Virus record (IMG/VR): IMGVR_UViG_3300028797_000119
Strand: one strand, 5' to 3'
From: an uncultured virus (IMG/VR IMGVR_UViG_3300028797_000119)
Taxonomy: Duplodnaviria > Heunggongvirae > Uroviricota > Caudoviricetes
DNA: 62,432 nt
Made by a program: the position numbers and the translations under genes. Positions 978 to 18,266 of this stretch are shown here, piece after piece. Numbering within the stretch: position 1 is the stretch's first letter; each line of letters begins with the position of its first letter. The notes beneath the pieces are model-generated. The model did not search any database. It had not been told where the DNA came from and was given only the letters and a program-made list of their open reading frames with translations.

Positions 978-1035
978 TGGTTTGTCTCCTTTTGATATAG
1001 GGGTGATAGCCGGACCGGGGAAGCCCGGCCAGTCG

Positions 1036-1344
1036 CTAGAAGTTCACCTTGTAATCCTTGTGGCCTTTTTCGCCAAAGATCTTGATGCGGTCGATTTTCT
1101 TACGGTTGCCGCAGATGGAGGCAGCAATTTCTACGAGCTTGCTCTTGCTCTTCTTGCACTTGAAAGCGAGGTCGTCGTAGGTGTTGATGGTCTTGCACAC
1201 GCACTTCTTACCCGTGTAGATATCAATGCACACGATATCGAGGCGGTGATTCTGCAAGTGGCAGAGGATGTTCGCGACTTCGCGAACCTTGTCTGAACGG
1301 GTGCAGCTGATTTCTTCGTTCTTGAGATAGTTGGGGAATTTCAT
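1036..1344 (-). CDS. hypothetical protein (MKFPNY...)
   Basis: start reassigned to ATG 1344 following AAGGAG and repeat copy 2. Confidence 0.7.
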   Translation of the reverse strand: MKFPNYLKNEEISCTRSDKVREVANILCHLQNHRLDIVCIDIYTGKKCVCKTINTYDDLAFKCKKSKSKLVEIAASICGNRKKIDRIKIFGEKGHKDYKVNF

Positions 1345-1428
1345 CGTGGTCTCCTTGTGGTTGGTATAAAAAGTATAGACACGCTGGGGAAACCCGGACG
1401 ACCGGAGCGAGTGACTGTACAGAAATGA

Positions 1429-1457
1429 AATATAAGAACACGGTGAGCATTTGTCAA
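1429..1457 (-). promoter_or_regulatory. sigma70-type promoter TTGACA-N17-TATATT
   Basis: exact -35, 17 nt spacer and TATATT read on the minus strand. Confidence 0.75.
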
Positions 1458-1491
1458 TACCCACCGTGGGTTAAAAGTTAAATTTTACATT

Positions 1492-2043
1492 TTACTGCAC
1501 AAAGCGCGGTTTCAAGCCAGCGTCGTCCTGGATCTGGCGGTACAGTTCGGCGTACATTTTCTCGCCCATAGCGAAAATAAAGCCGTCATTACCGACGAGG
1601 CGGTTGAATTTCGTCCGTCCGAGCCTAACAGAGCGAAGGTTCTTAGGTTCGAACTTGATGGATTCGCCATTCGCTCGCAAGTGTCGGAGGATTTCGCCGA
1701 TGGCCTCACGGTTGGTCGTACGCTTCTCGTACATCACGATAACCGTCGTATCGCCGTACATATGGCTATCGACGACCGACGAGCCTTTGATGTTGATGTA
1801 GGTCATACGGTAGCCGAGGTCAACATTGAGCTTCTTTGGGTAGTCCAGACGGTACATTTGGATGGGCTTGGGGGTGGCAGCTTGCCAGTCCTTGATCAAT
1901 TCGGCCTGAATCTCGCCGTAGCACTTGGTCTGGTCGTTCTCGTCGAGGCCGTGGTGACGGGCGATGTTATCGACGACAGACTGGATAGCCTTGCCGACAC
2001 GCGTTTTGACGCCTTTCATATAGCGTGACAGTTCGTAGCTCAT
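1492..2043 (-). CDS. hypothetical protein, 183 aa
   Basis: ORF with AAGGAGTTAA RBS and repeat. Confidence 0.75.
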   Translation of the reverse strand: MSYELSRYMKGVKTRVGKAIQSVVDNIARHHGLDENDQTKCYGEIQAELIKDWQAATPKPIQMYRLDYPKKLNVDLGYRMTYINIKGSSVVDSHMYGDTTVIVMYEKRTTNREAIGEILRHLRANGESIKFEPKNLRSVRLGRTKFNRLVGNDGFIFAMGEKMYAELYRQIQDDAGLKPRFVQ

Positions 2044-2122
2044 TTTAACTCCTTGTGGTTGGTTTCTTCTTGTATAGGGAAGATAACCGGCTGGGGGAAA
2101 CCCAGACCGGTTCAGACAGTCC

Positions 2123-2515
2123 CTAGTGCGGATCGACCGCCGGTCTGCCGGCTCGTGCGAAGCTCACGTCGATTTCCCATACGTTGTACTGTTCAGCGAT
2201 AGGAACCGAGGCGTTCGGCGTGTGTTCCGGAACAAGCTTGCGCGTGGCAAAGAGGCTGATTTCGGCTCCGTACACCCACTTGTCGCCGTACTTCACGACC
2301 ACCGTGCAACCGAGGTGGTAAAGCTTCTCGCCGGATTCCGTACAGCCGTAGCAAGGAAGATGGACGATGGAATGGGCGTACACCTCGCACTTGTTGTGCC
2401 GTGTGTAGTATTCAGTCGCGGCCTTCTGAATATCGGCGTGGATTTCCTCCGTCGTCATGCTCAACGGATTCTCTTCATCGAGAGATGCGATTTCGGCTCG
2501 TAATTGTTCAAGCAT
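2123..2515 (-). CDS. hypothetical protein, 130 aa
   Basis: ORF with RBS and repeat. Confidence 0.75.
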   Translation of the reverse strand: MLEQLRAEIASLDEENPLSMTTEEIHADIQKAATEYYTRHNKCEVYAHSIVHLPCYGCTESGEKLYHLGCTVVVKYGDKWVYGAEISLFATRKLVPEHTPNASVPIAEQYNVWEIDVSFARAGRPAVDPH

Positions 2516-2604
2516 TTTCTAACTCCTTTTCTGATATAAGAAAAATAACCGGTTAAGGGAAACCCGGTCCAGGCCGGTCAGTGTTCCCAAAGTGTTCCCA
2601 AGAT

Positions 2605-2638
2605 AAAAGAGGCTGCCGTGGACGGCAACCCCCTTTTT
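2605..2638. terminator. intrinsic terminator (possibly bidirectional)
   Basis: AAAAGAGGCTGCCGTGGACGGCAACCCCCTTTTT hairpin flanked by A and T tracts. Confidence 0.6.
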
Positions 2639-2643
2639 AAAAT

Positions 2644-3204
2644 TTATTCGATGAAAATATCGGCGGTGAGCAAGAAATTCACTGGGATATTGTCGTGATG
2701 GAAGGAAAGACGCTTCTTGCTCTTCGGCAAAGTACCCCAGAAGATAAATTCATCGCCGACCTTGAACTTGTACGGGCCAGCTTGGAACTCGTGCTTGACT
2801 GGGTAACGCTTGCCCACGACGAGGCTCTGGGCGAAGGCTGCCAGCTTGTCCTTCTGAGCCTTGGCCTCGGCTGCCTTCTTGTCGCAGTAGTCGAGCCATT
2901 CCTTGAGGTCGTCTGACGGAGTGAGGCCACGGGCGGCGTATTCCTTCTTGAGCCAGCGAGCGACGCTCTGATTGATCACGCTCGGACAAGACGACGCGCT
3001 GATGGCCTTGTACCAAACATACCCTTCCTTGTCCTTGTGCATCAAGAGCACGTCGGCGCACGGCTTATTGGTTTCCTTGACGATGAACTTGACCCAAGCA
3101 CCGGTCGTTCCGACGACTTCGGCCGGCGTAGTTGGGGTTGATCGAATTAACATAAGATTCGACCTGTTCCTTGGTAGTACGGCAATATTCGCAGCAGTAA
3201 CCCA
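2644..3204 (-). pseudogene. hypothetical gene with apparent 1-nt frameshift near 3121-3130
   Basis: RBS-linked ATG at 3204 (MGYCCEYCRTT...NPNYA) stops after 46 codons; the long frame (...AEVVGTTGAWVKF...) continues in the adjacent frame. Confidence 0.55.
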
Positions 3205-3282
3205 TTTTAACTCCTTGTGGTTGGTTGTTTCTTGTATAGAAGAAATAACCGGTCCGGGGAAACCCGGACCAGTCGAGCCAGT

Positions 3283-3681
3283 TTAACGGTCGAGCATTTC
3301 CGCCACGCTTTCTTGGAGCTTGTCGTAGCTTGTCCAGTTGTTCGGACCGCCTCGGTAGTCCTTTTCGCTTTCTGCCGTTCGGTAGTACATTTGGCCATAC
3401 CAGTCGTTCCAGCGAGCATCATCGCAGTGAACATAGACGTACTTGCCGTTCTTGCCGAAGAACGCAGACCAGTCGAAGTGGTTGGGTTCGAACTTGAGCG
3501 TAGCACCGATGGCCTTTGCCATCGCCTTGAGTTCCTTGCGGACGATGGGGATGAAGTATTTGCGGAAGAAGTTCGCGTGGGTATAGTCGCCCCAGTATTT
3601 TTCCGGAACATCGCAGTTCTCGAAGTCGTAGTCCTTGAAGGCAGCCACGGTCTTTTCGGTAGGGATTACACAACTTTTCAT
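3283..3681 (-). CDS. hypothetical protein, 132 aa
   Basis: ORF with RBS and repeat. Confidence 0.75.
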   Translation of the reverse strand: MKSCVIPTEKTVAAFKDYDFENCDVPEKYWGDYTHANFFRKYFIPIVRKELKAMAKAIGATLKFEPNHFDWSAFFGKNGKYVYVHCDDARWNDWYGQMYYRTAESEKDYRGGPNNWTSYDKLQESVAEMLDR

Positions 3682-3762
3682 TTTTAACTCCTTGTGGTTG
3701 GTTCTTTCTTGTATAGAAGAAATAGCCGGTCTGGGGACACCCGGAGACCGGCGAACATTCGG

Positions 3763-4179
3763 CTAGGCGTAAACCGGCTCTCCGAACAGACAGCACTGGA
3801 TGAACACATTGTCCGCGATGGAGTCGCCGTTGCCGTTCAGATAGTCGGCGAACGATTCCTTTGCGTTCTCGATGAACCCATCCACGCCACGTTCCAAGGC
3901 GGCCAGATCGAGCGTGTACGGCGTGTTATCGTCGTCTTCTACATCGTAGAAGGTCAGCTTTCCACCACGGTACACGATGCTTTCCAGCACTTCCTCGTAG
4001 GTGATTTCGTACGGCTTACCCTCGTTGTCGTGCTGGATGATGAGAGCTGCCTTGGCGTTCTTGTAGTCTTCGTCGCTGTATTCATAGCGCAGTACGCCCG
4101 GATTGCTGCCGAACCCGCTCAGAATGTCCAACAAGGACGTTTCGCAGAGGGAACAGAATTTCTGAAAGTCGATATTCAT
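3763..4179 (-). CDS. hypothetical acidic protein, 138 aa
   Basis: ORF with RBS and repeat. Confidence 0.75.
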   Translation of the reverse strand: MNIDFQKFCSLCETSLLDILSGFGSNPGVLRYEYSDEDYKNAKAALIIQHDNEGKPYEITYEEVLESIVYRGGKLTFYDVEDDDNTPYTLDLAALERGVDGFIENAKESFADYLNGNGDSIADNVFIQCCLFGEPVYA

Positions 4180-4250
4180 CTTTAACTCCTTTGTTTCTTG
4201 TATAGAAGAAATAACCGGGCTGGGGACACCCGGTTATTCCAAGCCAGTCG

Positions 4251-4391
4251 CTACGGAAGAACGACCACTATCTTTTTCTTCGGGTCGATGCTGTCCACCA
4301 CCCTTATATCGTCTCGTTTCTGCAATTCGTCAAGCGTACAGCCGAACTTCTTGCGGATTTCTGCCTTTGTCAAGGGAAACGCCCAAGCCAT
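4251..4391 (-). CDS. small hypothetical protein, 46 aa (MAWAFPLTKAEIRKKFG...)
   Basis: AGGAGG RBS; fills the gap between neighbouring genes; not in ORF track. Confidence 0.6.
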   Translation of the reverse strand: MAWAFPLTKAEIRKKFGCTLDELQKRDDIRVVDSIDPKKKIVVVLP

Positions 4392-4411
4392 AAAAACCTC
4401 CTTTTTGAAAA

Positions 4412-4948
4412 TTATTTTACCCATTCAGAAGCTCGGTTCCAGCCGTTATCGCCAACTTTGTTAATCGGCTGGTCAAGGGTGAACCCTATCAGACCGAGGA
4501 TAGAAGTGGCAGCCACATCGCCAGCGAACTGGATGACTTCTTGGAGCTTGGGGTCGTCGAGGCCAGTGATGTTCTCAAGCTTCTCGTCACGACCGCAAAA
4601 GACTTCCAGTCCGTACTGCCAGCAGTCGTATTCGTCAACCTTGCTCGGCTTGATTCCGCTCGTGTCGGCAACGCTCTTCTTTATCTTCTTGCCCAGCGTT
4701 TTCACATCAGGAACGAGGAAGAGGAAGACATTGAAGTCGCCGTCCTTTGTGTCAACCGAGGGAGAACACGCTTGGACATCCTTGACCCACACGCCAAGCT
4801 TGACCTTGCACTTCTTGCCGCCGTCCAGTTCGATTTCCGTCGTCTTCTTGCTCACGAAAATCCATTCCTCGTCGCCGGTGTCGTGACGGTCGAGAGTCTT
4901 TTCGATGGGTTCCAGTTCCTTTGCGCTTTCAATTCCGAAGTATTTCAT
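4412..4948 (-). CDS. hypothetical protein, 178 aa
   Basis: ORF with RBS and repeat. Confidence 0.75.
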   Translation of the reverse strand: MKYFGIESAKELEPIEKTLDRHDTGDEEWIFVSKKTTEIELDGGKKCKVKLGVWVKDVQACSPSVDTKDGDFNVFLFLVPDVKTLGKKIKKSVADTSGIKPSKVDEYDCWQYGLEVFCGRDEKLENITGLDDPKLQEVIQFAGDVAATSILGLIGFTLDQPINKVGDNGWNRASEWVK

Positions 4949-5018
4949 CTTAGCTCCTTTGTTTCTTGTATAGTGGAAATAACCGGTCTGGGGACGCCCG
5001 GACCGGTCCAGACAGTTC

Positions 5019-5312
5019 CTACTTTGCGACCCAGTTTACTTTGCCGTTGCTGAACGCGACAATGTAGAAGTCGGAATTATTAGTTTCCCATCCGTTTGCA
5101 CCCTTTAGAAGCGACCGCAAATCGTTGATGCTTTCGCAATAGTAGAAAATATCTTCGTCGTTACAATCGGTTTCGGACAATCCCACCGCGATAGCAGTTT
5201 CAAGTGTGCTTTGGTCGTCCTTATAGACAATCGTAACATCAATGATTTCGTCACCGATTTCAGCAAGTGCGCATTCGGTTTCGGTGTCCATAGGTTGGTT
5301 CATATCTACCAT
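5019..5312 (-). CDS. hypothetical acidic protein, 97 aa
   Basis: ORF with RBS and repeat. Confidence 0.7.
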   Translation of the reverse strand: MVDMNQPMDTETECALAEIGDEIIDVTIVYKDDQSTLETAIAVGLSETDCNDEDIFYYCESINDLRSLLKGANGWETNNSDFYIVAFSNGKVNWVAK

Positions 5313-5383
5313 GATTGGCTCCTTTGGTTGTGTAATGTATAGGATAACTGGACTGGGGAAGCCCAGTCCGGTCCGTACAGTTA

Positions 5384-5674
5384 CTAGACTTCCAGCGGTT
5401 CACCCTCGAACTTGCTGACCAGTTCCACATACTGTTCGTTGCAATGACGGCACGACACGTGGAACGAATCCATGTTCAGCGGATTATAGACCGTGTAGCG
5501 ACCCCATTTACCGAAGTGGACGGTGGAAACATAATCGCCACGCTTTTCGGCTTCGTCATGAAGCTTTACCATATGCTTTGCAGCGGTCAATCGGCTGGAA
5601 AATGCATAGATATTCTTAAATGTTTCCTTACCGTATTGTTTGCGGATTACATAAAAGATACGTTTCTTTGCCAT
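5384..5674 (-). CDS. hypothetical protein, 96 aa
   Basis: ORF with RBS and repeat. Confidence 0.7.
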   Translation of the reverse strand: MAKKRIFYVIRKQYGKETFKNIYAFSSRLTAAKHMVKLHDEAEKRGDYVSTVHFGKWGRYTVYNPLNMDSFHVSCRHCNEQYVELVSKFEGEPLEV

Positions 5675-5742
5675 ATTAACTCCTTTTCTGTATATATCGG
5701 ATAACCGGTCTGGGGAAGTCCGGACCGGTCTGGAAAGTTCCG

Positions 5743-6150
5743 CTAGACAACTTCGGCGGTATCGTCGTTCGGAGTGCGTTCTTGCGCCTTGTGGAAGATA
5801 CCGCAGTAGATGTCGTCAGAGCCACGAACAACTACGGAAGCGGACTTCAGACAGCCATACACCGCCTTGATTTCATCGTGAGTACGGAGTTTAAGCGTGT
5901 CTGGGTTTTCTTTATCCACATTACCCCATCCCATTTCGCCATCTTCCTTTTGGAATATCGTTTCGCCGTTCAATTCGACTTTGTAGATGTTATACGCTTC
6001 AAGGTCGCTTTGCATACGCTCCCAAATCGTAGCGGACGCCGATTCTACTGGGTCTTTGCCGTTCTCGTCAGAATAGAGACGAGTGCCAAAAAGCGTGTTC
6101 TCGTAAAGAGAGTCGCGAGTGTCGTTCGAGGTTAATACTACGAATTTCAT
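5743..6150 (-). CDS. hypothetical acidic protein, 135 aa
   Basis: ORF with RBS and repeat. Confidence 0.7.
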   Translation of the reverse strand: MKFVVLTSNDTRDSLYENTLFGTRLYSDENGKDPVESASATIWERMQSDLEAYNIYKVELNGETIFQKEDGEMGWGNVDKENPDTLKLRTHDEIKAVYGCLKSASVVVRGSDDIYCGIFHKAQERTPNDDTAEVV

Positions 6151-6219
6151 ATCTGTCTCCTATTGGTTGTTTCTTGTATAGGAGCGATATCCAGTCCGGG
6201 GAGACCCGGACCGGTCTGG

Positions 6220-6507
6220 TCATTCCTCGACGAACTTGGTGTGAGGGTAATGATCGGTAATGAATTTCTTGATTTCCTCTAGCTCGGCTTCGGTGATTCC
6301 GATTTCCTTGATGTTTCCGAACCAATTACATTCACCGTTCACGCATTCGCACACGGTTCCGATATTGTGACGACTGAAAAAAATACTAAACCACTGGTCG
6401 TAACCGCCACGGTTGCACTGCCAATAGCCAAATACCGCGTGTTTACCGTCTTTGCAGAAACGCGAAAACATTTGTTTGAACTGTGTGACAAGTTTCATCT
6501 GTGCCAT
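6220..6507 (-). CDS. hypothetical protein (MAQMKLVTQF...)
   Basis: start reassigned to ATG 6507 after AAGGAG. Confidence 0.65.
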   Translation of the reverse strand: MAQMKLVTQFKQMFSRFCKDGKHAVFGYWQCNRGGYDQWFSIFFSRHNIGTVCECVNGECNWFGNIKEIGITEAELEEIKKFITDHYPHTKFVEE

Positions 6508-6577
6508 AAAAAGCTCCTTTAAAGAAAAGAAAATGGGTGAGGCGGCAACCCAACCGCCCCACCCCACGAGGCGGAGG

Positions 6578-6994
6578 CTACATCCAGTCCTCGTTGTGCA
6601 TTTTGCGGAGTTCGCCGAGCGTCTTCTTGAACGGTTCCACCATGATGTCACGTTCCAGCGGAAGTCCGTACGGAGGGAAGCGGAGTCCGAACAGTTCCTT
6701 GAGGGAGGTGCCGCCGAGTTCGAGACCGTAGCCGAGCGACTGGGCGCAATACACAACCATGTTTTCGTCGATGTTCGATTCGTCGATACTGGTCGGAACC
6801 GTCTTGCCAGTCTTCTCGTCGGTCTTGTATTCCTTAAAGAAGCTGTCGTCTTCGAGGACATAGCAGACAAACGCAGCGCCGCCGAAGTAACGAGCGATTA
6901 CCTTCTTGTTGTCGCGGTCGACGCCGTCTTCAGAACCGTATGGGGTCTTTGCGATAGCTTCGATGATGGGCTTGGTGAGCATTTTCTGTGCCAT
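6578..6994 (-). CDS. DUF2958-like protein
   Basis: VIARYF...LGYGLELG..SL.EL...GLPLERD pattern recalled from DUF2958; ATG 6994 after RBS. Confidence 0.55.
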   Translation of the reverse strand: MAQKMLTKPIIEAIAKTPYGSEDGVDRDNKKVIARYFGGAAFVCYVLEDDSFFKEYKTDEKTGKTVPTSIDESNIDENMVVYCAQSLGYGLELGGTSLKELFGLRFPPYGLPLERDIMVEPFKKTLGELRKMHNEDWM

Positions 6995-7083
6995 AGGTCT
7001 TAACTCCTTTTGAGTGGTTGGTTGTTTCTTGTATAGGATAGATAGCCGGACCAGGGAGACCCGGCCACCATCAGACAGTTCGA

Positions 7084-7416: not shown

Positions 7417-7500
7417 ATTAACTCCTTTTCTTGTATAAAAAGAATAACCGGGCTGGGGATGCCCGGATTTATCCAGCCAGTGAACTAATTAACGAAATCG

Positions 7501-7526
7501 AATAAAAGGGGCGAACCCCTTATTTT
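7501..7526. terminator. intrinsic terminator
   Basis: AATAAAAGGGGCGAACCCCTTATTTT hairpin after the radC stop. Confidence 0.6.
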
Positions 7527-11684: not shown

Positions 11685-11802
11685 ATCGCTTAACTCCTTT
11701 CTGATATAGGTACGATAGGCAAGAAAGGGAAGCCCGGCCAGATCCGGTCAGTCCCGGACCGGACTTCCCCCAAGAAACACCCCCTTTGAAGGGGGTTGGG
11801 AG

Positions 11803-12237
11803 TTAAACATACTTCTGTATGGTCTTCTTGTCGGCTCCGCTTGCAACTAGCTTTATGAGTTCCAAAGCCTCCCAAACGGCTCCGATTTGGCAATCCATAG
11901 CTCGCTCGTATTCACGCTTGCAAGCCTTGTCTCGTTTCGTGTAAAGGCGGTTGCAGATATCCTCGTTTGACACTAGGAACATAGCACCATAGCAAGCACG
12001 GCGCACTATGTCCTTGGCGTCCTTGGTGCGGTCGCTCGCCTTGAACTTGTAGCCGTCACAATGGTGGGTCACGTGGCCGATGGAAATTTCAGAATATTCC
12101 GTGTCCTTGGTCACTCCCTCTTGGTCGCCGTTACAAAGTTTTTCCATCATTTCCACGGCGTAGGTGAGAATACCCTTGTGCCATTTGTCACGGAACTTGA
12201 GTGTCTTGAGAATTGCCAAAATTTCAAAAACTTTCAT
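11803..12237 (-). CDS. hypothetical protein, 144 aa
   Basis: ORF with RBS and repeat. Confidence 0.75.
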   Translation of the reverse strand: MKVFEILAILKTLKFRDKWHKGILTYAVEMMEKLCNGDQEGVTKDTEYSEISIGHVTHHCDGYKFKASDRTKDAKDIVRRACYGAMFLVSNEDICNRLYTKRDKACKREYERAMDCQIGAVWEALELIKLVASGADKKTIQKYV

Positions 12238-12314
12238 CTTAACTCCTTTGTTGTTCAGTTCTTGTATAGAGGTAATGGGAGGCTGGGGGAAACCCAGCCA
12301 GTCCCAGTTAGTCC

Positions 12315-12710
12315 CTAGGCCGCCTTGTAGACGAGGTAATAGCAGTTGCTAATGCAGTGCCATTTGTAGCCGTAACGGTCGAGGAACTTGGTGAAACGGT
12401 TACGGAGCGTTTGGTTCGTCGAATAGTGGAGCGCATAGTTCAAGGCTCCCTCGGCGACCATACCGATGACCGTCGTCGCCCCAAGCTGCTTGGTGAGGTT
12501 ATCGACAACCTCACGGCCTTCCGTCAAGCACTTGCAGAACTCGAACCCGTCGAGGCGGATAACCTTGTCGGTGCGAGATTCAATGTCCCAGCGACGGTCG
12601 AGGAATCCGTTGCCGTTGTCATAGGTGCTTACATCGCAGATTCCAGCCTTGATGCACCAGTTCAAAATCTTTATGGGCATCGGTTCACGAGATGTAATAA
12701 TTTTTTTCAT
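12315..12710 (-). CDS. hypothetical protein, 131 aa
   Basis: ORF with RBS and repeat. Confidence 0.75.
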   Translation of the reverse strand: MKKIITSREPMPIKILNWCIKAGICDVSTYDNGNGFLDRRWDIESRTDKVIRLDGFEFCKCLTEGREVVDNLTKQLGATTVIGMVAEGALNYALHYSTNQTLRNRFTKFLDRYGYKWHCISNCYYLVYKAA

Positions 12711-12776
12711 CGTCTTAACTCCTTTTCTTGTATAGAGTGAATAGGACGGATGGGGAAACCCGTCCTACCTCGGCCA

Positions 12777-13271
12777 TTACTGCTGCTGGTGGGTTCTGCG
12801 CCATTCGGCAATAGCCCATTCACTGTTATCTTGGAAAAATCCGTGTTCGGCGATTTTTTCGGCGCGGTCTCCGCTGAAGGTGGCCACGCGGAACTTGATG
12901 GCGTCAATCAAGGCGAGTTCGAACGCCTTCTGTTCCTCTTCGGCAATCTCGGCACGGAGCGTGGTGTTGATGCTGCCGTGGGTGCGTCCGCTGCCGTCCG
13001 CGTACTTGAACACGATACTCAAGTCGGTGCCGTTATAGACGAACAACATATGCTGGCGGAGGCGTTCACGGAGCTTGCACTGCGGCATCGAGGTGGTCAC
13101 CTTGTATTCGGCTGCCATATCACGACTGAGGACGCCCCAAATGTCGTACTTGATGAGTCCGAGCGTTTCTGCTCGGTAGAACAGTTCCACGCCGTGATAC
13201 CACTTGACTTGGCTCAATACGTCGTTCGCCTTGCTTGCGAAGTCCTTGATTTCGTTTGCTGTAAAACCCAT
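12777..13271 (-). CDS. hypothetical protein, 164 aa
   Basis: ORF with RBS and repeat. Confidence 0.75.
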   Translation of the reverse strand: MGFTANEIKDFASKANDVLSQVKWYHGVELFYRAETLGLIKYDIWGVLSRDMAAEYKVTTSMPQCKLRERLRQHMLFVYNGTDLSIVFKYADGSGRTHGSINTTLRAEIAEEEQKAFELALIDAIKFRVATFSGDRAEKIAEHGFFQDNSEWAIAEWRRTHQQQ

Positions 13272-13353
13272 AGCTTAACTCCTTTAAGGTTGTTCGTTTC
13301 TTGTATAGAGGTGATGGGAGGCTGGGGGAAACCCAGCCAGTCCCAGCCAGTCC

Positions 13354-13584
13354 CTAGACCATTCTCGCTAGGGTCGTGTTCCGTCCGACAATTACATAGC
13401 GGTTGCCGTCGTTGTCTTGGAGTTCGGCACCGTTCAAGCCGTTCACGCCCACGGACACGCTCACGGTGGCTACACCCTTGTGGCGGATTTCGTTCAGCTG
13501 GGCTTCGTCCCATTGGTTGATGTTGGTGGCTAACCCATCTCGCTCCAAAGAGCGGAGGTACTTCTGCGTTACTCGGTTTGACAT
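13354..13584 (-). CDS. hypothetical protein (MSNRVTQKY...)
   Basis: ATG 13584 after AAGGAGTTAG. Confidence 0.7.
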   Translation of the reverse strand: MSNRVTQKYLRSLERDGLATNINQWDEAQLNEIRHKGVATVSVSVGVNGLNGAELQDNDGNRYVIVGRNTTLARMV

Positions 13585-13713
13585 AGCTAACTCCTTTGCT
13601 TGTATAGGTTGGATAGCCGACTGGGGGAATCCCAGCCGGACCAAGTCAGTCCCCTATCCGGGAACCGCCCCAAAGAACCGCCGTGGAGCGTGGCGGTTTG
13701 GGGTAGGTGCTTA

Positions 13714-13974
13714 CTACTTGCGGATGCTGTCGGCTGCCTCGTGGAGCTTCTTGGATGCCGCCGTGGCCGCTTCGGCTGCCTTGTCCTTGGCGACCGCAGT
13801 TGCCTTGTCCGCCGCCTTGCTCGCTTCGGTTTTGATGGTCGCCGCCGCTTCGCTCGCCGCCGTGGTAGCTAGTTCTGTAGTAGCCTTGCCAACTTTCTTG
13901 GCCGCTTCAGCTGTCTTTTCTCCGCACGCAATCAAGGCGCATGCGGTCACGATTAAAATTAAGAATTTTTTCAT
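13714..13974 (-). CDS. putative Ala/Lys-rich lipoprotein
   Basis: MKKFLILIVTACALIAC lipobox-like signal. Confidence 0.65.
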   Translation of the reverse strand: MKKFLILIVTACALIACGEKTAEAAKKVGKATTELATTAASEAAATIKTEASKAADKATAVAKDKAAEAATAASKKLHEAADSIRK

Positions 13975-13998
13975 TGTTTTTTCTCCGTTGGTTATGGT

Positions 13999-14334
13999 TT
14001 ACCACTTGATTTCATCAGCTACATAAGCGATAATATTTTGAAGTGCGTCCTCGGCATCCTCGGCAAGTTCGTAAAGGTTTATTTTGGTGTTTGAGGTGTT
14101 GGCGAAGATTCCCCCCTCGCCATCGGTCTCAATATACCCCTTACCCTTGGGCGTGTAGAGTTCGTAAGTCACACCGCCGTCAAAGTGGTGGGTGATGACT
14201 ATCGCCTTGTCCTCGGTGCGGAAGCAGTGGATGTGGGTCTCGCCGATGAACTCCTCGCAAATGGGGAGGTCTTGGGCGAAGAGGGAAGCGGTAGCAATGG
14301 CTACCGCAGTGAGTGCTGTCTTGAGGGATTTCAT
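13999..14334 (-). CDS. putative secreted protein
   Basis: signal peptide MKSLKTALTAVAIATASLFA. Confidence 0.65.
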   Translation of the reverse strand: MKSLKTALTAVAIATASLFAQDLPICEEFIGETHIHCFRTEDKAIVITHHFDGGVTYELYTPKGKGYIETDGEGGIFANTSNTKINLYELAEDAEDALQNIIAYVADEIKW

Positions 14335-14543
14335 TAGCGGTTATCCTCCACTGTGATGCCGCCGTCGGCGGTCGGTCTGAACATCAGATAGCATTCGGAC
14401 TGCTTGTAGAGACCCTCGGCAACGAGGATTTCCTCAAGCTCGTCGGTCTGAATGTCCTTGGGTAAGGTTCTGCGGTAGAAGCGGACGGACGCTGTGCTGT
14501 AATCCATAACCGCTAGGTCAAATTCTCGTGTTTCCTTGCTCAT
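14334..14543 (-). CDS. hypothetical protein (MSKETREF...)
   Basis: ATG 14543 after AAGGAGTTAA and repeat. Confidence 0.65.
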   Translation of the reverse strand: MSKETREFDLAVMDYSTASVRFYRRTLPKDIQTDELEEILVAEGLYKQSECYLMFRPTADGGITVEDNR

Positions 14544-14639
14544 TGGCTTAACTCCTTGGTAATGTTTCTTACATACGAGAAATCTCCGTCGAGGGGAAGC
14601 CCGGCCTCGAACAGTCAGTCCTATTCCCGGACCGATCAG

Positions 14640-14783
14640 AAAAATGGGGTGCAGACACCTCGTCCGCACCCCTTGGGAGTTAAGCAAAGGCAAGTAAGGG
14701 GGGAGCACCTTGCTCCCCCTAGGGAGTTAAGCAAACTTAAAAGCGGTGGGAACGGTTCCCACCGCTGGGGAGTTAAGCAAAAT
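14640..14783 (-). repeat. three tandem units of TTTGCTTAACTCCC + GC hairpin
   Basis: GGGAGTTAAGCAAA on + at about 14675, 14722 and 14768, each next to a different stem-loop. Confidence 0.8.
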
Positions 14784-14942
14784 TTAAAACTGCGAAAGCA
14801 AATAATTCAATGCGATATTAGTCAAGGCGAACACGCCCAAAAAACCTATTAAAACCGACACAGCCGAACCGCTTTTAAATACCTTAATAGTGACCATGAA
14901 CGACACCACAAGACAAAGAATTATTTTCCACGTCAAAACCAT
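14784..14942 (-). CDS. small membrane protein, 52 aa (2 TM)
   Basis: MVLTWKIILCLVVSFMVTIK...LIGFLGVFALTNIALNYLL; not in ORF track. Confidence 0.55.
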   Translation of the reverse strand: MVLTWKIILCLVVSFMVTIKVFKSGSAVSVLIGFLGVFALTNIALNYLLSQF

Positions 14943-14990
14943 AAATCCCCCTTGGGAAAGGGGGTGCGTAGCACCCCCAACTTTTTATTT

Positions 14991-15905
14991 TTAGTCCTTT
15001 CCGTAAATCCGTTTTACAGCTGCGGTCGCTTTGGTCATCGCCCATTCAACAATCGTTGGGTCGCTTTTCAAAGATTTTGCCCAACTCTGAAGATACGCTA
15101 CATTATTTTTGTCCGTCTTAGGCGTATTCCAACCATTGTCGTGCAAAATAATTGCGGAGCAAAGTTCTGCGACCAATTCCTCTTTGGAGTAAAGGTGGTC
15201 ACCGAAAACATTTTTAATATCTCGCTTCAGTCGGTGTTCTGCACCAGTGGAATGACCTAGTTCGTGGAACAAGGTTCCGTAATACCCCTCGCTAGATTTA
15301 AAATTCTCTATGTTGGGGACATTAACCAAGTCTTCGCTCGGTCGGTAGAAAGCTCGGTTCTGATTTTCGTGAACAAATTTAATTCCCTCACGAGAAATAT
15401 ATTCGACTGCAATCTTTTCAGCATCGGCGATTTGGTTGATGTGCTTCTTTTCAACCTTTTTCGTGTACTTTGTCGGACAATCCACTTGAGTTCCAACTCG
15501 CCAAACCTTGGAAGTCTTGAGGAAGAAATACGCTCCCTTGACTGGGTTGCCGTCCTTGTCCTTGATGACATTGCCGTCGGCGTCCTTCTTGTCGTATTCA
15601 AGACGCTTGCGGAACACGATGACCGTCGGAACTTGCTTGCTACCATCTTCGGTTTCGATGAACTTGCCACCACGAGCCTTCAGTTCGTTGAAGGTTACAA
15701 ATTCGCCTGGTTCGTGACCACCGAGCATGCAAAGGATAGTGTTAAGAATGCCGTAGCTCTTACCGCTGGAACCGACATATCCGCTTTCGGTTTTCACCCA
15801 CGGTCTATCCCAAGGGACGATACCGCTTTCCAACGCCTTAACAAATGTTGCCGTAAGGTCGCGACAAATCTGTTCGTTAATAGATTTTACTTTTGCGCTT
15901 GCCAT
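14991..15905 (-). CDS. ardC: ArdC-like ssDNA-binding antirestriction protein with zincin-like domain
   Basis: GIVPWDRPW, Y.GILN, AFYRPSED, YYGTLFHELGHSTG, YSKEELVAE, AYLQSW motifs. Confidence 0.92.
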   Translation of the reverse strand: MASAKVKSINEQICRDLTATFVKALESGIVPWDRPWVKTESGYVGSSGKSYGILNTILCMLGGHEPGEFVTFNELKARGGKFIETEDGSKQVPTVIVFRKRLEYDKKDADGNVIKDKDGNPVKGAYFFLKTSKVWRVGTQVDCPTKYTKKVEKKHINQIADAEKIAVEYISREGIKFVHENQNRAFYRPSEDLVNVPNIENFKSSEGYYGTLFHELGHSTGAEHRLKRDIKNVFGDHLYSKEELVAELCSAIILHDNGWNTPKTDKNNVAYLQSWAKSLKSDPTIVEWAMTKATAAVKRIYGKD

Positions 15906-16042
15906 AGTGCTTAACTCCTTGATTTTTCGTAAGCCTCATCGCTTACATATATGAAATAGACGTAATGGGGAAGCACAGACCGGTTCAGTCAGTGGCTTCG
16001 CTCACTTGCCCAAGGGAAAGCCGTCTAAAGACGGCTTGAGGT

Positions 16043-16321
16043 CTAGTGCTGTTGTGCGTAGTACGCTTGTATCGTCGCAAAGAGACCGTCAAAGCGATGG
16101 TCTTCGGCTTCTTTCTCGGTCAATAAGCGCCATATCCCCTTGACCTTGGTTATGACGTACCCAACCAGCTGGAACCTATCGACCATAGTGTCAAAGTAGA
16201 TATGACCATCTTGGTTATCCACAACAACATCAAGGAACGCACCCTTGCGACCGTGGCGCTCCCACTGCGCTTTTGCGAGCTTGCGCAAATACGCATAATT
16301 CAATTTGAAACACTTATTCAT
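16043..16321 (-). CDS. hypothetical protein (MNKCFKL...)
   Basis: ATG 16321 after AAGGAGTTAAGC. Confidence 0.65.
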   Translation of the reverse strand: MNKCFKLNYAYLRKLAKAQWERHGRKGAFLDVVVDNQDGHIYFDTMVDRFQLVGYVITKVKGIWRLLTEKEAEDHRFDGLFATIQAYYAQQH

Positions 16322-16486
16322 GCTTAACTCCTTGATTTTCGTAAGCCTCATCGACTTACATATGTGAGATAGACGGATTGGGGAAGCACAGACCTGTTCA
16401 GTCAGTGCCTTTGGGGCAAACACAAAAAATCAAGGCTCGTGGGCGCCTAAAATCTGTATACGTACATTACACCCATTACACTATTC

Positions 16487-16640
16487 AAACGGCTCCACGA
16501 TACCAAAAAACAATAAAAACGGCTCTATTTGTGTTGCCCATAGCCTTAAAACTATAAAATTGTGCGGATATGCCAACAACACGAAAAACGGCTCCAAAAA
16601 CGCATTTTAGAGCCTTAAAATTTAACTATTTGCGGATACA
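16487..16640. repeat. degenerate ~69-bp direct repeat in AT-rich non-coding DNA
   Basis: blocks ACGGCTC, AGCCTTAAAA and TGCGGATA recur at a 68-69 nt offset. Confidence 0.55.
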
Positions 16641-16725
16641 TAAAACCAAAAACAAAAAGCCTAAAACCATAGGTTTTAGGCTCGAAAATTATATAAAACG
16701 GAAAAAGGGGGTTTTACCCCCTTGT

Positions 16726-17502
16726 TTAACCCTTTTGGGAAAGCTCCCATTCTTTGTGCTTACGTTCAAATTCTTTTTCAGTCTTTTCGATGTAAGCGTC
16801 ACGCATTTGAATAAGTTCTGCATCGGTGTAGAATTTATCGTCACAGAAGAATTTTTCCTTGATGTCAACGCCATTCACCAAAATCTTGCAGTTTTCAAAC
16901 TTGACTTCGATGAACTCGCGCAAAGAAATTTCTTCGCCGTCCTTGTCAAGAATTGCGTTGCCGTTGCCGTCCTTGAAAACAGATTTTGTTACGAGACCTT
17001 CCGTCCAAAGCTTGAAGTCATCGGACTTTGCCCACGGCAACAAAACATATTTTGAAGTGGGGTGACCGTCAACAATCCACTTTGCCTTCGGCTTTTCCTT
17101 TCCGTCTTGGGTCGGATATGCCGTGAAGTAAATGGTCTGCAAATCCATGCCGAGGTAAATCAGTTCCTTGTAGAGAGGGAACTTGTGCGGTTTGCGGTAC
17201 TTCGGTTCGTACATCGCACCCTCGAAGCCGTTGCGGTCGAGCTTCTTCTCTTGCATCTTGGTGTAAGAGAGGGAACCACCGAGCTGAATCGGATAGGTCT
17301 GTTCCTTGATGACCGAGCGGAAGGGGTTCGGTGCGCCAACGGTCGGTATCTTCAGACCCATTTCATCCATCTTGGCACAGACTTCGGGGAACTGAGACAA
17401 GTCGCGAGCCTTCTTGACCATATAGGTCATATAATCGCCACTGTATTCCATACGTGCGAATGTATTTTTGACAATGGCTTCTTCATTGACTTTGAACATC
17501 AT
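16726..17502 (-). CDS. hypothetical protein, 258 aa
   Basis: ORF with RBS and repeat. Confidence 0.8.
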   Translation of the reverse strand: MMFKVNEEAIVKNTFARMEYSGDYMTYMVKKARDLSQFPEVCAKMDEMGLKIPTVGAPNPFRSVIKEQTYPIQLGGSLSYTKMQEKKLDRNGFEGAMYEPKYRKPHKFPLYKELIYLGMDLQTIYFTAYPTQDGKEKPKAKWIVDGHPTSKYVLLPWAKSDDFKLWTEGLVTKSVFKDGNGNAILDKDGEEISLREFIEVKFENCKILVNGVDIKEKFFCDDKFYTDAELIQMRDAYIEKTEKEFERKHKEWELSQKG

Positions 17503-18266
17503 AAGCTTAACTCCTTTATTTTCGTAAGCCTCATTGCTTACATCATTGGGATAGGCGGTTAGGGGAAACCCAACCGAACCTAGGCAGTGTGGAGTTACCG
17601 CTCATGGATTCGTGGGTCTTAGGCAACCGCCTTTCGACATACGAGCGATACGCCGTAGGGGGACGCCCGGACCGGTCCAGTCAGTACGAGCAGACTTTCT
17701 GGAGACGATTTTCGCCGTAAGGGAGTTTTCAAGGCTCTTTCGTGCTAGGGTGCTACGTTTGCCCACCGCTCCCCCATCGTGGGACATGGTGGCTCGCTGT
17801 GGCGACCGCTGACCCATACCCCCCACGGCTGACCCTTGACCCCATACCTATCCACCCCCATCAGTTAGCCAGGGCTAAGTTAGTCTTGGCTAATTTCGCC
17901 GTAAGGCACGTTTGAGCAGTAGTTTCTGCTTGTGGTTTACGCTCGCGGCCTGTGGCAGACCAGTAGGGAGGAGCAGGGAGTCCGGGGAGCAGTCGGGACT
18001 GGTTGAGACCAGTTGGGAGCAGCCGAGACCAGTTCCCTTGGTTCGGGATAACCCGGACTGGGTCATAGCTGCTGGGAGCGGTCATCCGGGGTTGACGGAA
18101 AATTTTTCAAATATTATTTATTGTCACATAAAAATAAAAATTGGGAACATAAACTAGTTGAAAAATTTCGGTGCGTACTACATAGGGGGTATTTTCATCT
18201 ATATAAGGCCCGAACACCGAAAAAAAAATTTTAGGGGGGGGGTACAACCACCCTTATAGGAGATCT

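What the first reader, a model, noticed from the sequence alone, without database searches (positions are those of the whole stretch)
978..17690. 17-kb array of single-gene cassettes, each led by a conserved hairpin-promoter-RBS element
Seen: about 27 copies of an element reading (minus strand) ...CCGGTCCGGG-nn-TCCCC-N8-TAT-N6-TATACAAGAAA...AAGGAGTTAA-ATG. It often fills the whole gap from the previous stop codon to the next ATG. Spacing from TCCCC to TATACA is 17 nt in the copies checked (1017, 1386, 2093, 3256, 4222, 4990, 5712). The genes between copies are short, unrelated, co-oriented and mostly unknown. No copy was seen beyond 17.7 kb. Known analogues: PeSL regulatory cassettes of T4-like phages, integron attC arrays and phage early host-takeover regions. 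Inference: a cassette system that both expresses early and anti-defence genes and allows them to be shuffled or excised by recombination between elements. The TCCCC '-35' differs from the TTGACA promoters used elsewhere in the window, which suggests a dedicated sigma factor, RNAP or activator.
Basis: partly seen in the sequence, partly recalled or inferred. Interest (0 to 1): 0.9.

Follow-up and report, generated by a model that had tools for sequence, protein, structure and literature searches.

The report
Promoter-hairpin gene cassette array in phage
A giant rumen phage carries a long row of small unknown genes, each led by the same short control element, and related phages differ by whole genes gained or lost exactly at these elements, a larger and unusual version of a gene-shuffling system already known from T4-like phages.

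Summary
27 co-oriented copies of a ~62-nt element lie on the minus strand at 988-17691 and nowhere else in the window. The window's left edge cuts the array.

The window is part of a ~355-kb phage with a T4-like gene set. Its relatives carry the same one-strand, one-region arrays of 28, 41 and 56 copies.

Related arrays keep the cassette order but differ by whole cassettes. 88 of 118 homology breakpoints fall in the element, which covers 15.6% of the array. Junction elements are chimeras with variable switch points, so the recombination is homologous. No integrase or resolvase was found.

The closest known system is the PeSL/PmSL terminator-promoter cassettes of T4-like phages. This is a new variant: the box is not sigma-70-like, although the phage has canonical TTGACA/TGnTATATT and TATAAACT promoters elsewhere.

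TATACA lies 6 nt or less from the Shine-Dalgarno core in 11 of 26 copies. The start is more likely the purine after TAT.

Promoter activity, the proposed role of the phage sigma factor and excised circles were not tested.

The parts
1..17691 (-). Whole cassette array as held in the window: 27 elements and 33 co-oriented ORFs. The window's left edge truncates it.
   Evidence: In relatives, more cassettes (n7, n13, n14, n17, n19-21, n30) follow cassette W26.
17630..17691 (-). Element 1, the array head. TATGTC type. No gene upstream and no SD directly behind it. Element 2 follows 35 nt later.
   Evidence: (PWM 49.4). The same tandem head is present in G001.
17533..17594 (-). Element 2, GATGTAAG type, with a leader hairpin. 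ATG at 17502.
   Evidence: (45.2).
16351..16412 (-). Element 3, TATGTAAG type, with a leader hairpin and a weak upstream hairpin. ATG at 16321.
   Evidence: (55.6).
15938..15999 (-). Element 4, TATGTAAG type, with a leader hairpin and no upstream hairpin. ATG at 15905 (ArdC-like gene).
   Evidence: (52.6).
14564..14625 (-). Element 5, TATGTAAG type. ATG at 14543. The cassette holds three ORFs.
   Evidence: 50.4.
13595..13656 (-). Element 6. ATG at 13572.
   Evidence: 61.3; hairpin -19.3.
13296..13357 (-). Element 7. ATG at 13271.
   Evidence: 66.5; -20.7.
12723..12784 (-). Element 8. ATG at 12710.
   Evidence: 51.3; -15.9.
12257..12318 (-). Element 9. ATG at 12237.
   Evidence: 58.0; -20.7.
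11697..11758 (-). Element 10, with a weak hairpin. ATG at 11684.
   Evidence: 58.8; -6.1.
10810..10871 (-). Element 11. ATG at 10800.
   Evidence: 70.2; -17.3.
10418..10479 (-). Element 12. ATG at 10393.
   Evidence: 69.1; -20.3.
9206..9267 (-). Element 13. ATG at 9177. Two-gene cassette.
   Evidence: 68.2; -8.0.
8134..8195 (-). Element 14. ATG at 8118 (RadC-like gene). This cassette is absent from G001.
   Evidence: (65.2).
7426..7487 (-). Element 15. ATG at 7416.
   Evidence: 60.9.
7024..7085 (-). Element 16. ATG at 6994. Two-gene cassette.
   Evidence: 62.7.
6169..6230 (-). Element 17. ATG at 6150. The upstream stop codon TGA lies inside the AATGACC motif.
   Evidence: 66.9.
5683..5744 (-). 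Element 18. ATG at 5674. This cassette is absent from G001 and several other relatives.
   Evidence: (58.2).
5326..5387 (-). Element 19, the one copy whose TATAC lies 4 nt closer. ATG at 5312.
   Evidence: 42.7.
4961..5022 (-). Element 20, the best match to the consensus. ATG at 4948. Two-gene cassette.
   Evidence: 75.9.
4193..4254 (-). Element 21. ATG at 4179.
   Evidence: 64.4.
3704..3765 (-). Element 22. ATG at 3681.
   Evidence: 55.8.
3227..3288 (-). Element 23. ATG at 3205.
   Evidence: 71.7; -22.9.
2527..2588 (-). Element 24, TCCCT/TATATC variant, preceded by a canonical terminator. ATG at 2515.
   Evidence: (61.7).
2065..2126 (-). Element 25. ATG at 2043.
   Evidence: 72.8.
1357..1418 (-). 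Element 26, with a weak hairpin, preceded by a sigma-70-like promoter. ATG at 1344.
   Evidence: (41.2).
988..1049 (-). Element 27. ATG at 977.
   Evidence: 52.0.
1429..1457 (-). The only strong sigma-70-type promoter match inside the array (TTGACA-17-TATATT).
   Evidence: 11 of 12 consensus positions.
14646..14776 (-). Three tandem units of TTTGCTTAACTCC plus a GC hairpin and T-run (canonical terminators with an anti-RBS motif), just ahead of element 5.
17700..18266 (.). Non-coding head region between the array and the divergent GIY-YIG gene. It holds three ~20-25-nt iterons at 17947-18079 and no strong sigma-70-type match on the array strand.

Best explanation
The array is a hyperplastic region built from PeSL-type composite regulatory cassettes in a huge phage with a T4-like gene set.

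Anatomy of one unit:
- It starts at or within about 25 nt of the previous stop codon.
- First comes an ACTGnCTGG motif.
- Next is a GC-rich stem-loop whose apex carries a conserved box: GGGyTTCCCC here, GGGGCTCCTC and GGGGCTGCCTC in two sister clades.
- Then follow a pyrimidine/T-rich tract, TAT, 6 nt and TAT-purine.
- A CA-rich leader of 17-41 nt comes next, then a perfect AAGGAGTTAA Shine-Dalgarno and the ATG.

Proposed working (inferred):
- The stem-loop is transcribed as the 3' end of the previous cassette's RNA and attenuates or stabilises it.
- The box and the TAT...TAT-purine core direct a new initiation at the purine (A of TATACAAG, G of TATGTAAG).
- Each small gene is therefore an insulated, strongly translated unit.
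- The polymerase is most likely host core RNAP directed by a phage factor. The best candidate is the phage sigma-70-family protein with regions 2 and 4, which has its own sigma-70-type promoter.

Recombination:
- The ~60-90-nt units are repeated head to tail.
- The phage's own homologous recombination system (a UvsX-like recombinase is present) deletes, duplicates and swaps cassettes by crossovers anywhere inside the unit.

Shown: the repeat family, its confinement to one region and strand, cassette gain and loss with chimeric junction elements, the matched hairpin arms, and the absence of site-specific recombinases.

Inferred: promoter activity, the start point, the terminator role and the sigma assignment.
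For: Repeat family:
- 27 copies against about 3 expected by chance.
- All copies sit on one strand in one region in the window and in three relatives: 28, 41 and 56 copies.

Recombination:
- The cassette maps of 23 related stretches plus G001 are collinear but differ by whole cassettes.
- 88 of 118 internal homology ends lie in the element plus leader, which make up 15.6% of the array (these events are not independent).
- All 12 junction elements at adjacencies not seen in the window (6 adjacency types) are chimeras. The upstream-partner to downstream-partner switch falls in the left arm, right arm, TATAC or leader.
- RNA-library contigs show cassette-skipping joints inside the element: 4997/5720 and 10421/10814.

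Hairpin:
- Native arms fold better than swapped arms. Window: -14.19 against -11.09 kcal/mol, 0 of 20,000 permutations. G004: -15.06 against -11.38. G003: -15.12 against -13.93, both 0 of 5,000.
- The sense strand is more stable than the antisense in G004 (48 against 8 copies, p 5.7e-7) and in G003 (31 against 9, p 3.4e-4).

Promoter role:
- Element 1 sits in a non-coding head region with no gene upstream on its strand.
- No TG.TATATT, TTGAC-N17-19-TAWAWT or TATAAACT motif occurs in G001's 17-kb array, though 47, 35 and 58 occur genome-wide.
- Canonical terminators lie inside the array directly ahead of elements.
- Leader hairpins (GTAAGC-N6-GCTTAC) begin exactly at the G after TAT in the head cassettes of all three clades, with compensatory variants.

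Sigma:
- G001 has a sigma with Sigma70_r2 and r4 domains. A TTGCAT-N17-TATATT promoter lies upstream of its gene.
- Three of three genomes with this sigma carry arrays.

Analogy: the PeSL architecture and its tested promoter and terminator functions (PMC2839356, passages; PMC4122927, text parts 1-2).
Against: - No transcription start, end or timing was measured. The RNA data are assembled contigs, which break at repeats and cannot show ends. Eight of the listed pieces read straight through an element.
- Covariation in a fixed register is weak: 68.5% paired against 67.1% in shuffles (4 of 500 reach it), and score 0.151 against 0.137 (28 of 500) on 150 of the 199 unique copies.
- The window clade shows no sense/antisense bias (p 0.24).
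- 8 of the 27 window copies have poor hairpins.
- Some hairpin-plus-T-run 'terminators' sit between two genes of one cassette with no element behind them (6564, 8511). They must leak, which weakens the argument that terminators require internal promoters.
- Neither candidate -10 (TATnnn or TATACA) has the conserved final T of sigma-70 promoters.
- The link to the sigma rests on elimination and on co-occurrence in related genomes only.
Confidence: 0.65

Rival explanations
1. There is no internal promoter. The array is one or a few long operons, and the element is an intercistronic RNA module. A hairpin attenuates and stabilises the upstream RNA. A UAU...UAU|R site is cut by a host or phage RNase to give monocistronic mRNAs. 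A CA-rich leader with a strong SD drives translation.
For: - The hairpin carries a sense-strand signature in G003 and G004.
- Leader hairpins that start exactly at the purine fit a processed 5' end as well as a primary one.
- Contigs from RNA libraries cross elements: X19 record 2, X20 record 13 and X23 records 23, 24, 26 and 28.
- TATACA is too close to the SD to be a -10 hexamer.
Against: - Element 1 has nothing upstream on its strand to process or terminate, and the head region has no strong sigma-70-type match.
- The G001 array has none of the phage's other two promoter motifs.
- Transcription would have to pass 28-56 GC hairpins plus canonical terminators.
Confidence: 0.2
2. This is the first reader's geometry: a classical two-hexamer promoter. 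TTCCCC is the -35 and TATACA the -10, with a 17-nt spacer. A dedicated sigma reads it, and transcription starts about 7 nt after TATACA.
For: - The spacing is fixed at 17 nt in 26 of 27 copies.
- TTCCCC is kept even in copies that lack the hairpin, at 15971 and 16384.
- The phage sigma has region 4, which reads a -35.
Against: - The hexamer ends 6 nt or less from the SD core in 11 of 26 window copies, 10 of 28 in G001, 26 of 40 in G003 and 19 of 55 in G004. Such starts would fall inside or behind the conserved SD.
- In the TATGTAAG subclass the start would fall in the loop of a conserved leader hairpin that shows compensatory changes.
- The fixed spacing can also come from common descent of the repeats.
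Confidence: 0.12
3. An integron-like or transposon-like system. The hairpin is a folded single-strand recombination site, like attC or IS200/IS605 ends, cut by a dedicated recombinase that excises and inserts cassettes.
For: - Hairpin repeats flank single promoter-proximal genes.
- The hairpin apex box is conserved.
- IS605-type TnpB genes occur in the window and in G001.
Against: - No Phage_integrase, Resolvase or Y1_Tnp match is found in six-frame searches of G001, which is 93% complete. The controls rang in 14, 12 and 6 of 14 genomes.
- Crossover points vary along the element.
- Every cassette carries its own expression signals, unlike integron cassettes.
Confidence: 0.03
4. The element is a promoter for a phage-encoded RNA polymerase: T7-like with TATA at -4..-1, an N4-like hairpin promoter, or an AR9/phiKZ-like enzyme with a short box plus an initiator.
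For: - The conserved TAT lies directly at the proposed start.
- A hairpin lies upstream.
- The TAT-N6-TAT|R geometry recalls published non-canonical phage RNAP promoters. This is recalled knowledge, not from a call.
Against: - No RNA_pol, Rpb2_6 or Rpb1_2 match in G001. The T7-type control rang nowhere, so that one search is uninformative.
- No RNAP family appeared among the 286 ORFs scanned with PHROGs.
- The phage has a gp55-like late sigma and a sigma-70-family factor, which implies it uses the host core enzyme.
Confidence: 0.06

Closest known systems
PeSL (promoter-early stem-loop) cassettes of T4-like phages (Arbiol et al. 2010, PMC2839356; Comeau et al. 2014, PMC4122927)
   Same: - The order of parts matches: stop codon, stem-loop with a G-run...C-run, promoter, SD, ATG.
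- They sit between small ORFan genes in a hyperplastic region of a phage with a T4-like gene set.
- Indels and replacements between close relatives have crossovers at various points inside the element.
- No dedicated recombinase is needed.
   Different: - The promoter-like part is not sigma-70-like, although this phage has near-consensus sigma-70 promoters elsewhere.
- The surroundings are GC-rich and there is no AT-rich UP region.
- The stem-loop overlaps the position where a -35 would lie.
- The density is far higher: 27-56 consecutive units covering 5-17% of the genome, against an uninterrupted run of six PeSL-separated ORFs cited in nt-1.
- Promoter activity, terminator activity and mini-circles are untested here.
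PmSL (promoter-middle stem-loop) of Vibrio phage nt-1 (Comeau et al. 2014, PMC4122927)
   Same: A PeSL-type unit built on a promoter class that is not the early sigma-70 type and depends on phage factors.
   Different: PmSLs carry a MotA box (TGCTT) plus a -10 box. No MotA or AsiA family appeared in the PHROG scans of G001, and the box here is unrelated.
Integron attC cassette arrays
   Same: Co-oriented single-gene cassettes separated by imperfect-palindrome repeats, with variable cassette content between relatives.
   Different: There is no integrase. Crossovers are variable and homologous. Each cassette has its own expression signals instead of one shared Pc promoter.
T7 early-region RNase III sites and SPO1 host-takeover module (recalled from memory, not from a call)
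   Same: Hairpins or promoter/terminator pairs punctuate a row of small early genes.
   Different: The hairpins here have 6-13 pairs, too short for RNase III. The repeat unit is a single conserved composite element.

Membership tests
PeSL / PmSL composite terminator-promoter cassettes | [quoted passage not shown] | tested here: met
   - The stop codon lies 13-26 nt before TCCCC in 16 of 25 copies.
- By PHROG names, G001 has a UvsX-like recombinase, a gp32-type SSB, SbcCD-like nuclease, a Dda-like helicase, baseplate wedge proteins, a tail sheath and a late sigma factor.
PeSL / PmSL composite terminator-promoter cassettes | Stem-loop, often G-run...C-run, at the 5' side of the unit | tested here: met
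   - The apex reads GGG-yTTC-CCC.
- 84% of 199 unique copies fold at -9 kcal/mol or lower.
- Arm-swap tests are positive.
PeSL / PmSL composite terminator-promoter cassettes | Sigma-70-like -35/-10 promoter (PeSL) or Mot box plus -10 (PmSL) | tested here: not met
   - TTCCCC/TATACA is not the sigma-70 consensus, and TATACA is too close to the SD in 11 of 26 copies.
- Only one sigma-70-type match lies in the array.
- No Mot box is present.
PeSL / PmSL composite terminator-promoter cassettes | [quoted passage not shown] | tested here: not met
   The upstream part is GC-rich (ACTGnCTGGnCCGGTCCGGG).
PeSL / PmSL composite terminator-promoter cassettes | Shine-Dalgarno sequence and start codon at the 3' end of the unit | tested here: met
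   - AAGGAG is present for 17 of 23 array genes, against 14 of 320 elsewhere in G001.
- 18 of the 19 AAGGAGTTAA copies in G001 lie in the array.
PeSL / PmSL composite terminator-promoter cassettes | Indels and replacements between close relatives, with crossovers inside the element | tested here: met
   88 of 118 ends; 12 chimeric junctions.
PeSL / PmSL composite terminator-promoter cassettes | Measured promoter and terminator activity, and excised mini-circles | not testable with these tools
   Only assembled contigs of public runs were available, and these cannot show ends or rare circles.
Integron (attC/IntI) | Adjacent tyrosine recombinase IntI | tested here: not met
   PF00589 gives 0 matches in G001, while the control rings in 14 of 14 genomes. 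No integrase family is found in the window.
Integron (attC/IntI) | Recombination at one fixed point of the site | tested here: not met
   The switch points lie in different parts of the element in different events.
Promoters of phage-encoded RNA polymerases | A phage RNAP gene in the genome | tested here: inconclusive
   There is no match to PF00562, PF00623 or PF00940, and no PHROG RNAP family. However, the PF00940 control was silent, divergent RNAPs can escape detection, and G001 is 93% complete.

The most novel reading that the evidence does not exclude
The arrays are a recombinase-free 'cassette bank' read by a dedicated transcription mode. A phage sigma-70-family factor is made early from a host-type promoter. 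It recognises a box embedded in the terminator hairpin of the preceding cassette and starts transcription at an initiator-like TAT|R. Dozens of orphan genes (up to 56, 17% of the genome) are then switched on together as individually insulated units. Insulation extends to translation through the sense-strand TTAACTCC motif, which is complementary to the cassette RBS. The same repeats let homologous recombination trade cassettes between co-infecting relatives.
Probability: 0.25. Interest if true: 0.8.

Novelty: new variant of a known kind. Interest (0 to 1): 0.6.

Why it matters
It extends PeSL-type modular shuffling from cultured coliphages and vibriophages to uncultured ~350-kb rumen phages. 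Here the system takes its most extreme form so far in what I read and searched: 27-56 consecutive units, up to 17% of the genome.

The repeat gives a ready marker for finding the accessory (probably host-takeover or counter-defence) gene pool of these phages. The data already hold at least 68 distinct cassette types (W0-W26 plus n1-n41).

The non-sigma-70 core, set beside two other clear promoter classes and two phage sigma factors, offers a tractable three-class transcription programme to test in a huge phage that appears to lack its own RNA polymerase.

Tried and rejected
Searches that found nothing:
- Megablast of window 1-20000 against GenBank phages gave no match.
- The element pattern in 185,579 species genomes gave 0 hits.

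Data that could not be reached:
- No whole genome is held for the window.
- Metagenome contigs cannot be reached through handles, so arrays in those contigs are known only within 1.5 kb of exact pattern matches.

Host inference:
- The window's TnpB gave one 83% hit, in a 266-kb contig of a MAG labelled Bacilli.
- That contig also encodes a 32%-identical major head protein, so it is probably another huge phage. It has no element enrichment (68/81 against control 59/59) and no sigma hit.
- The host therefore remains unknown.

RNA evidence:
- Contigs from four RNA libraries (X19, X20, X21, X23) cover the cassettes at 85-99% identity.
- Ten listed contig ends fall 4-28 nt downstream of TATA and upstream of the ATG.
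- I do not count this as start-site evidence. Assemblies break at repeats, DNA carry-over is not excluded, and 109 further pieces were not shown.
- Uncovered bins in those runs carry no meaning.

Folding:
- RNAalifold on the ungapped alignment gave no consensus helix, because the stem register shifts by one between copies.
- My regex for TCCCC-to-TATA spacing was faulty (it could match one base early). The spacing statement rests.

Rejected readings:
- RNase III site: the stems are too short.
- MITE or REP-like selfish repeat: the orientation and position between stop codon and RBS are strictly fixed, and copies occur in one region only.

Full report
**1. The observation**

The pattern TCCCC-N8-TAT-N6-TATA with up to 2 mismatches hits 31 times, against 2.97 expected (0 of 100 shuffles reach 31). 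27 hits are on the minus strand between 996 and 17663.

Aligned on TCCCC, the copies share this sequence: ACTGnCTGG, about 6 nt, gtCCGGG-yT-TCCCC, nGnCCGGyTAT, 6 nt, TATACAAGAAA, 0-20 nt of CA-rich leader, AAGGAGTTAA, 1-5 nt, ATG. A PWM built from the 27 copies finds nothing else of 15 bits or more in the 62-kb window.

- In 16 of the 25 copies with an upstream gene, the stop codon lies 13-26 nt before TCCCC. Sometimes it sits inside the ACTGAC/AATGAC motif.
- The other nine gaps are 65-393 nt longer and mostly hold canonical terminators.
- The 33 ORFs between elements have no detectable paralogy.
- Only a RadC-like product (7528-8118) and an ArdC-like anti-restriction product (14994-15905) have family hits.

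**2. What genome this is**

The rest of the window encodes NAD-salvage enzymes, Thg1, a CCA-adding enzyme, TerD proteins and a TnpB. No whole genome is held for the window.

An exact-pattern scan of viral contigs found one record, a 355,392-bp contig (G001, 93% complete), which is 92-97% identical to the window. I fetched it whole.

By PHROG names, G001 has a T4-like set:
- a UvsX-like recombinase, a gp32-type SSB and SbcCD-like nuclease;
- Dda-like and DnaB-like helicases, a B-family DNA polymerase and a clamp loader;
- tail sheath and tube, baseplate wedge proteins, portal, major head protein and prohead protease;
- a gp55-like 'late sigma'.

It also encodes a sigma-70-family protein of 289 aa with Pfam regions 2 and 4, and an IF3 homologue.

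Six-frame family searches of G001 found no tyrosine recombinase, serine recombinase or Y1 transposase. They also found no RNAP beta or beta' domains. The T7-type RNAP search was uninformative because its control was silent.

**3. Distribution of the element**

- In G001 the window-trained PWM gives 28 hits. All are on one strand at 338,125-355,289, the contig end, and none is elsewhere.
- A metagenome scan returned 78 loci on 22 contigs, none identical to the window. In each of the 23 merged stretches, all PWM hits lie on one strand.
- 185,579 bacterial and archaeal species genomes hold no copy of the pattern.
- Homologues of the phage sigma led to two more near-complete huge phages.
- G003 (308 kb, sigma 69% identical) has 41 elements at 281,359-307,687.
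- G004 (348 kb, sigma 60% identical) has 56 elements at 232,226-290,552.
- In both, every copy is on one strand.
- Their consensus differs in the hairpin apex: GGGGCTCCTC in G003 and GGGGCTGCCTC in G004, against GGGyTTCCCC here. They keep ACTGG (strongly in G004, weakly in G003), the TAT, the TATAC core, the CA-rich leader and AAGGAG.

**4. Cassette dynamics**

I defined cassettes as the stretches between elements and clustered them by BLAST. The arrays are collinear with the window but differ by whole cassettes.

- G001 lacks the RadC cassette and the two cassettes at 5019-5672. It has at least five cassettes the window lacks.
- Other contigs show further deletions (W15 to W18, W15 to W19, W9 to W11, W20 to W22), replacements and an internal duplication (n1).
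- There are 27 window cassette types and 41 others.
- In relatives, more cassettes follow the window's last one, so the window edge cuts the array.

Of 118 internal BLAST alignment ends against the window array, 88 lie in the element plus 30-nt leader. These cover 15.6% of the array (binomial p 8e-46). That p-value overstates the evidence, because related contigs share events.

At 12 junctions where two window cassettes are newly adjacent, the junction element is a chimera. Its 5' part matches the element that follows the upstream cassette in the window. Its 3' part matches the element that precedes the downstream cassette. The switch lies in the left arm, the right arm, the TATAC or the leader, depending on the event.

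This is the pattern of homologous exchange between dispersed repeats, not of a site-specific enzyme.

**5. The hairpin**

- 84% of 199 unique copies fold at -9 kcal/mol or lower.
- In a fixed register the covariation signal is weak: 68.5% of cells paired against 67.1% in shuffles (4 of 500), and score 0.151 against 0.137 (28 of 500). This used the first 150 of the 199 copies. The stem register shifts by one between copies, and much of the pairing comes from a conserved palindrome.
- A register-free test is clear. Each left arm folds better with its own right arm than with the arms of other copies.
- The values are -14.19 against -11.09 for the window's 27 copies (0 of 20,000 permutations), -15.06 against -11.38 for G004, and -15.12 against -13.93 for G003 (both 0 of 5,000).
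- Eight window copies are poor hairpins, yet they keep TTCCCC.
- In G003 and G004 the sense strand folds better than the antisense: 31 against 9 copies, and 48 against 8. This is the signature of a structure used on the sense strand, most simply as RNA. The window clade shows no such bias.

**6. Is it a promoter, and where would it start?**

G001 has two other clear upstream motif classes:
- TTGaca-N17-tTGCTATATTT, a sigma-70 type with extended -10, present for example ahead of the IF3 gene;
- aTATAAACTgc, 57 copies, found ahead of structural genes, which fits the gp55-like factor.

Neither class occurs in G001's array. G003's array has one such match and G004's has seven.

Three further points bear on promoter function:
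- The array contains canonical terminators directly ahead of elements.
- Element 1 lies in a ~570-bp non-coding head region opposite a divergent gene, with no strong sigma-70-type match on its strand.
- Without promoter activity in the elements, transcription would have to cross 28-56 GC hairpins from an unidentified start.

The TATACA hexamer ends 6 nt or less before the SD core in 11 of 26 window copies, 10 of 28 in G001, 26 of 40 in G003 and 19 of 55 in G004. A start 6-8 nt past it would remove the conserved SD from the mRNA.

In the head cassettes of all three clades, a leader hairpin (GTAAGC-N6-GCTTAC) begins exactly at the G that follows TAT. Its compensatory variants include GTAAGGC/GCCTTAC, GTGAGGC/GCCTCGC and GTAGGGC/GCTCTAC.

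I therefore place the RNA 5' end at the purine after TAT (A in TATACAAG, G in TATGTAAG). This gives leaders of 17-41 nt. Whether that end is primary or processed cannot be told from sequence.

**7. Which factor**

This is inference only. Host sigma-A probably reads the TTGACA class and the gp55-like factor the TATAAACT class. By elimination, the r2+r4 phage sigma is left for the array.

- The sigma gene has a TTGCAT-N17-TATATT promoter upstream as well as a TATAAACT box, so it could be made early.
- All three genomes with this sigma have arrays.
- One distant phage-like contig has neither the sigma nor an array.
- All of this is co-inheritance, not proof.

**8. RNA libraries**

Four metatranscriptome runs from four studies hold contigs at 85-99% identity over most cassettes. 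Some contigs skip cassettes with joints inside the element. Contigs cannot show ends or exclude DNA carry-over, so I use this only as evidence of presence.

**9. Comparison with known systems**

PeSLs (PMC2839356, passages read; PMC4122927, text parts 1-2 read) are composite units with the same order of parts: stem-loop, then promoter, then SD and ATG. Their stem-loops often have a G-run...C-run. Promoter and terminator activity has been measured for them, and they take part in homologous exchanges and mini-circle formation. PmSLs show that the promoter class can differ.

The present element meets the positional, stem-loop, SD and recombination criteria. It fails the sigma-70-promoter and AT-rich criteria. 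Its activity is untested.

Two literature searches and the PeSL search listed no description of such arrays in huge gut phages. One listed paper on NAD+ systems of gastrointestinal jumbo phages (PMC11662467, listing only) may cover this phage group.

**10. Verdict**

The feature is real and striking. It is best filed as a new variant of PeSL-type regulatory cassettes. The shuffling mechanism is well supported. The transcription mechanism is plausible but unmeasured.

Noticed in passing
window 8516-8523, 9322-9329, 11140-11147, 11799-11806, 14676-14683, 14723-14730, 14769-14776 (minus strand): TTAACTCC is the exact complement of the cassette RBS core GGAGTTAA. It occurs 7 times on the sense strand of the array, at or just after stop codons (the TAA stop can lie inside it) and directly before canonical terminator hairpins. 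Both strands together give 27 hits against 1.81 expected. It may be a 3' anti-RBS that silences read-through translation, or a relic of inverted units.
   Followed up: partly
window 17541-17510, 16359-16330, 15946-15915 (minus); also G001, G003 and G004 head cassettes: A leader stem-loop GTAAGC-(G/A)ATGAG-GCTTAC starts exactly at the G after TAT in the TATGTAAG subclass. It is conserved with compensatory changes in three clades. It looks like a 5'-terminal mRNA stabiliser or an operator.
   Followed up: partly
window 17700-18266: The non-coding head region holds three ~20-25-nt iterons (GGGAGCAGYCGRGACYRGTT on the + strand) at 17947-18079 and a C9/T-run tract near 18215-18240. It could be a regulator-binding region or an origin. 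The iterons contain ACTGG-like cores similar to the 5' motif of the element.
   Followed up: partly
window 24499-58232, many sites; G001 genome-wide: Two other promoter-like classes exist. One is TTGaca-N17-tTGCTATATTT (window minus-strand TG.TATATT sites at 24501, 30965, 37599, 41917, 47543 and 50673). The other is aTATAAACTgc (window 36796+, 51705+, 58232-, 55323-, 49930-, 36799-), sometimes as a palindromic bidirectional pair.
   Followed up: partly
G001 and window, genes outside the array: Strong SD use is almost confined to the array. AAGGAG is present for 17 of 23 array genes against 14 of 320 elsewhere, and 154 of the 320 have no SD-like 4-mer (crude gene calls). G001 also encodes an IF3 homologue (264,644-265,360) behind a perfect sigma-70-type promoter.
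   Followed up: no
window 3065-3205 and 2644-3153 (minus): In the cassette behind element 23, the RBS-proximal ATG (3205) opens only a 46-aa frame. The 169-aa frame starts at 3153 in another frame without an RBS. RNA-library contigs show an 81-nt and a 33-nt skip here. This could be a frameshift, a variable insert or an assembly error.
   Followed up: no
window 56938-58200 (minus): An IS605-type TnpB is 83% identical to a copy on a 266-kb contig of a MAG labelled Bacilli. That contig also encodes a 32%-identical major head protein, so it is probably a mis-binned huge phage. It gives no reliable clue to the host.
   Followed up: partly
window 28808-49656: An auxiliary cluster encodes NAPRTase (41968-43353), an NMNAT-like/Nudix fusion (40634-41902), a PnuC transporter (48862-49656), isochorismatase, Thg1 (33351-34382), a CCA-adding enzyme (31047-32357), a CoaE-like kinase and two metallophosphoesterases. 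It matches the theme of a listed paper on NAD+ systems in gut jumbo phages (PMC11662467, listing only).
   Followed up: no
window 20097-24758 (minus): Three consecutive paralogous ORFs (440, 451 and 547 aa) each end in a DUF5758 domain, next to a 608-aa GIY-YIG protein (18267-20090) that faces the array head.
   Followed up: no
G004 242148-243857 and others: In some G004 copies the constant box GGGGCTGC pairs with a downstream GCAGCCCY, instead of sitting at the apex of a stem formed by the flanks. Hairpin formation is kept by two different architectures around the same box.
   Followed up: no
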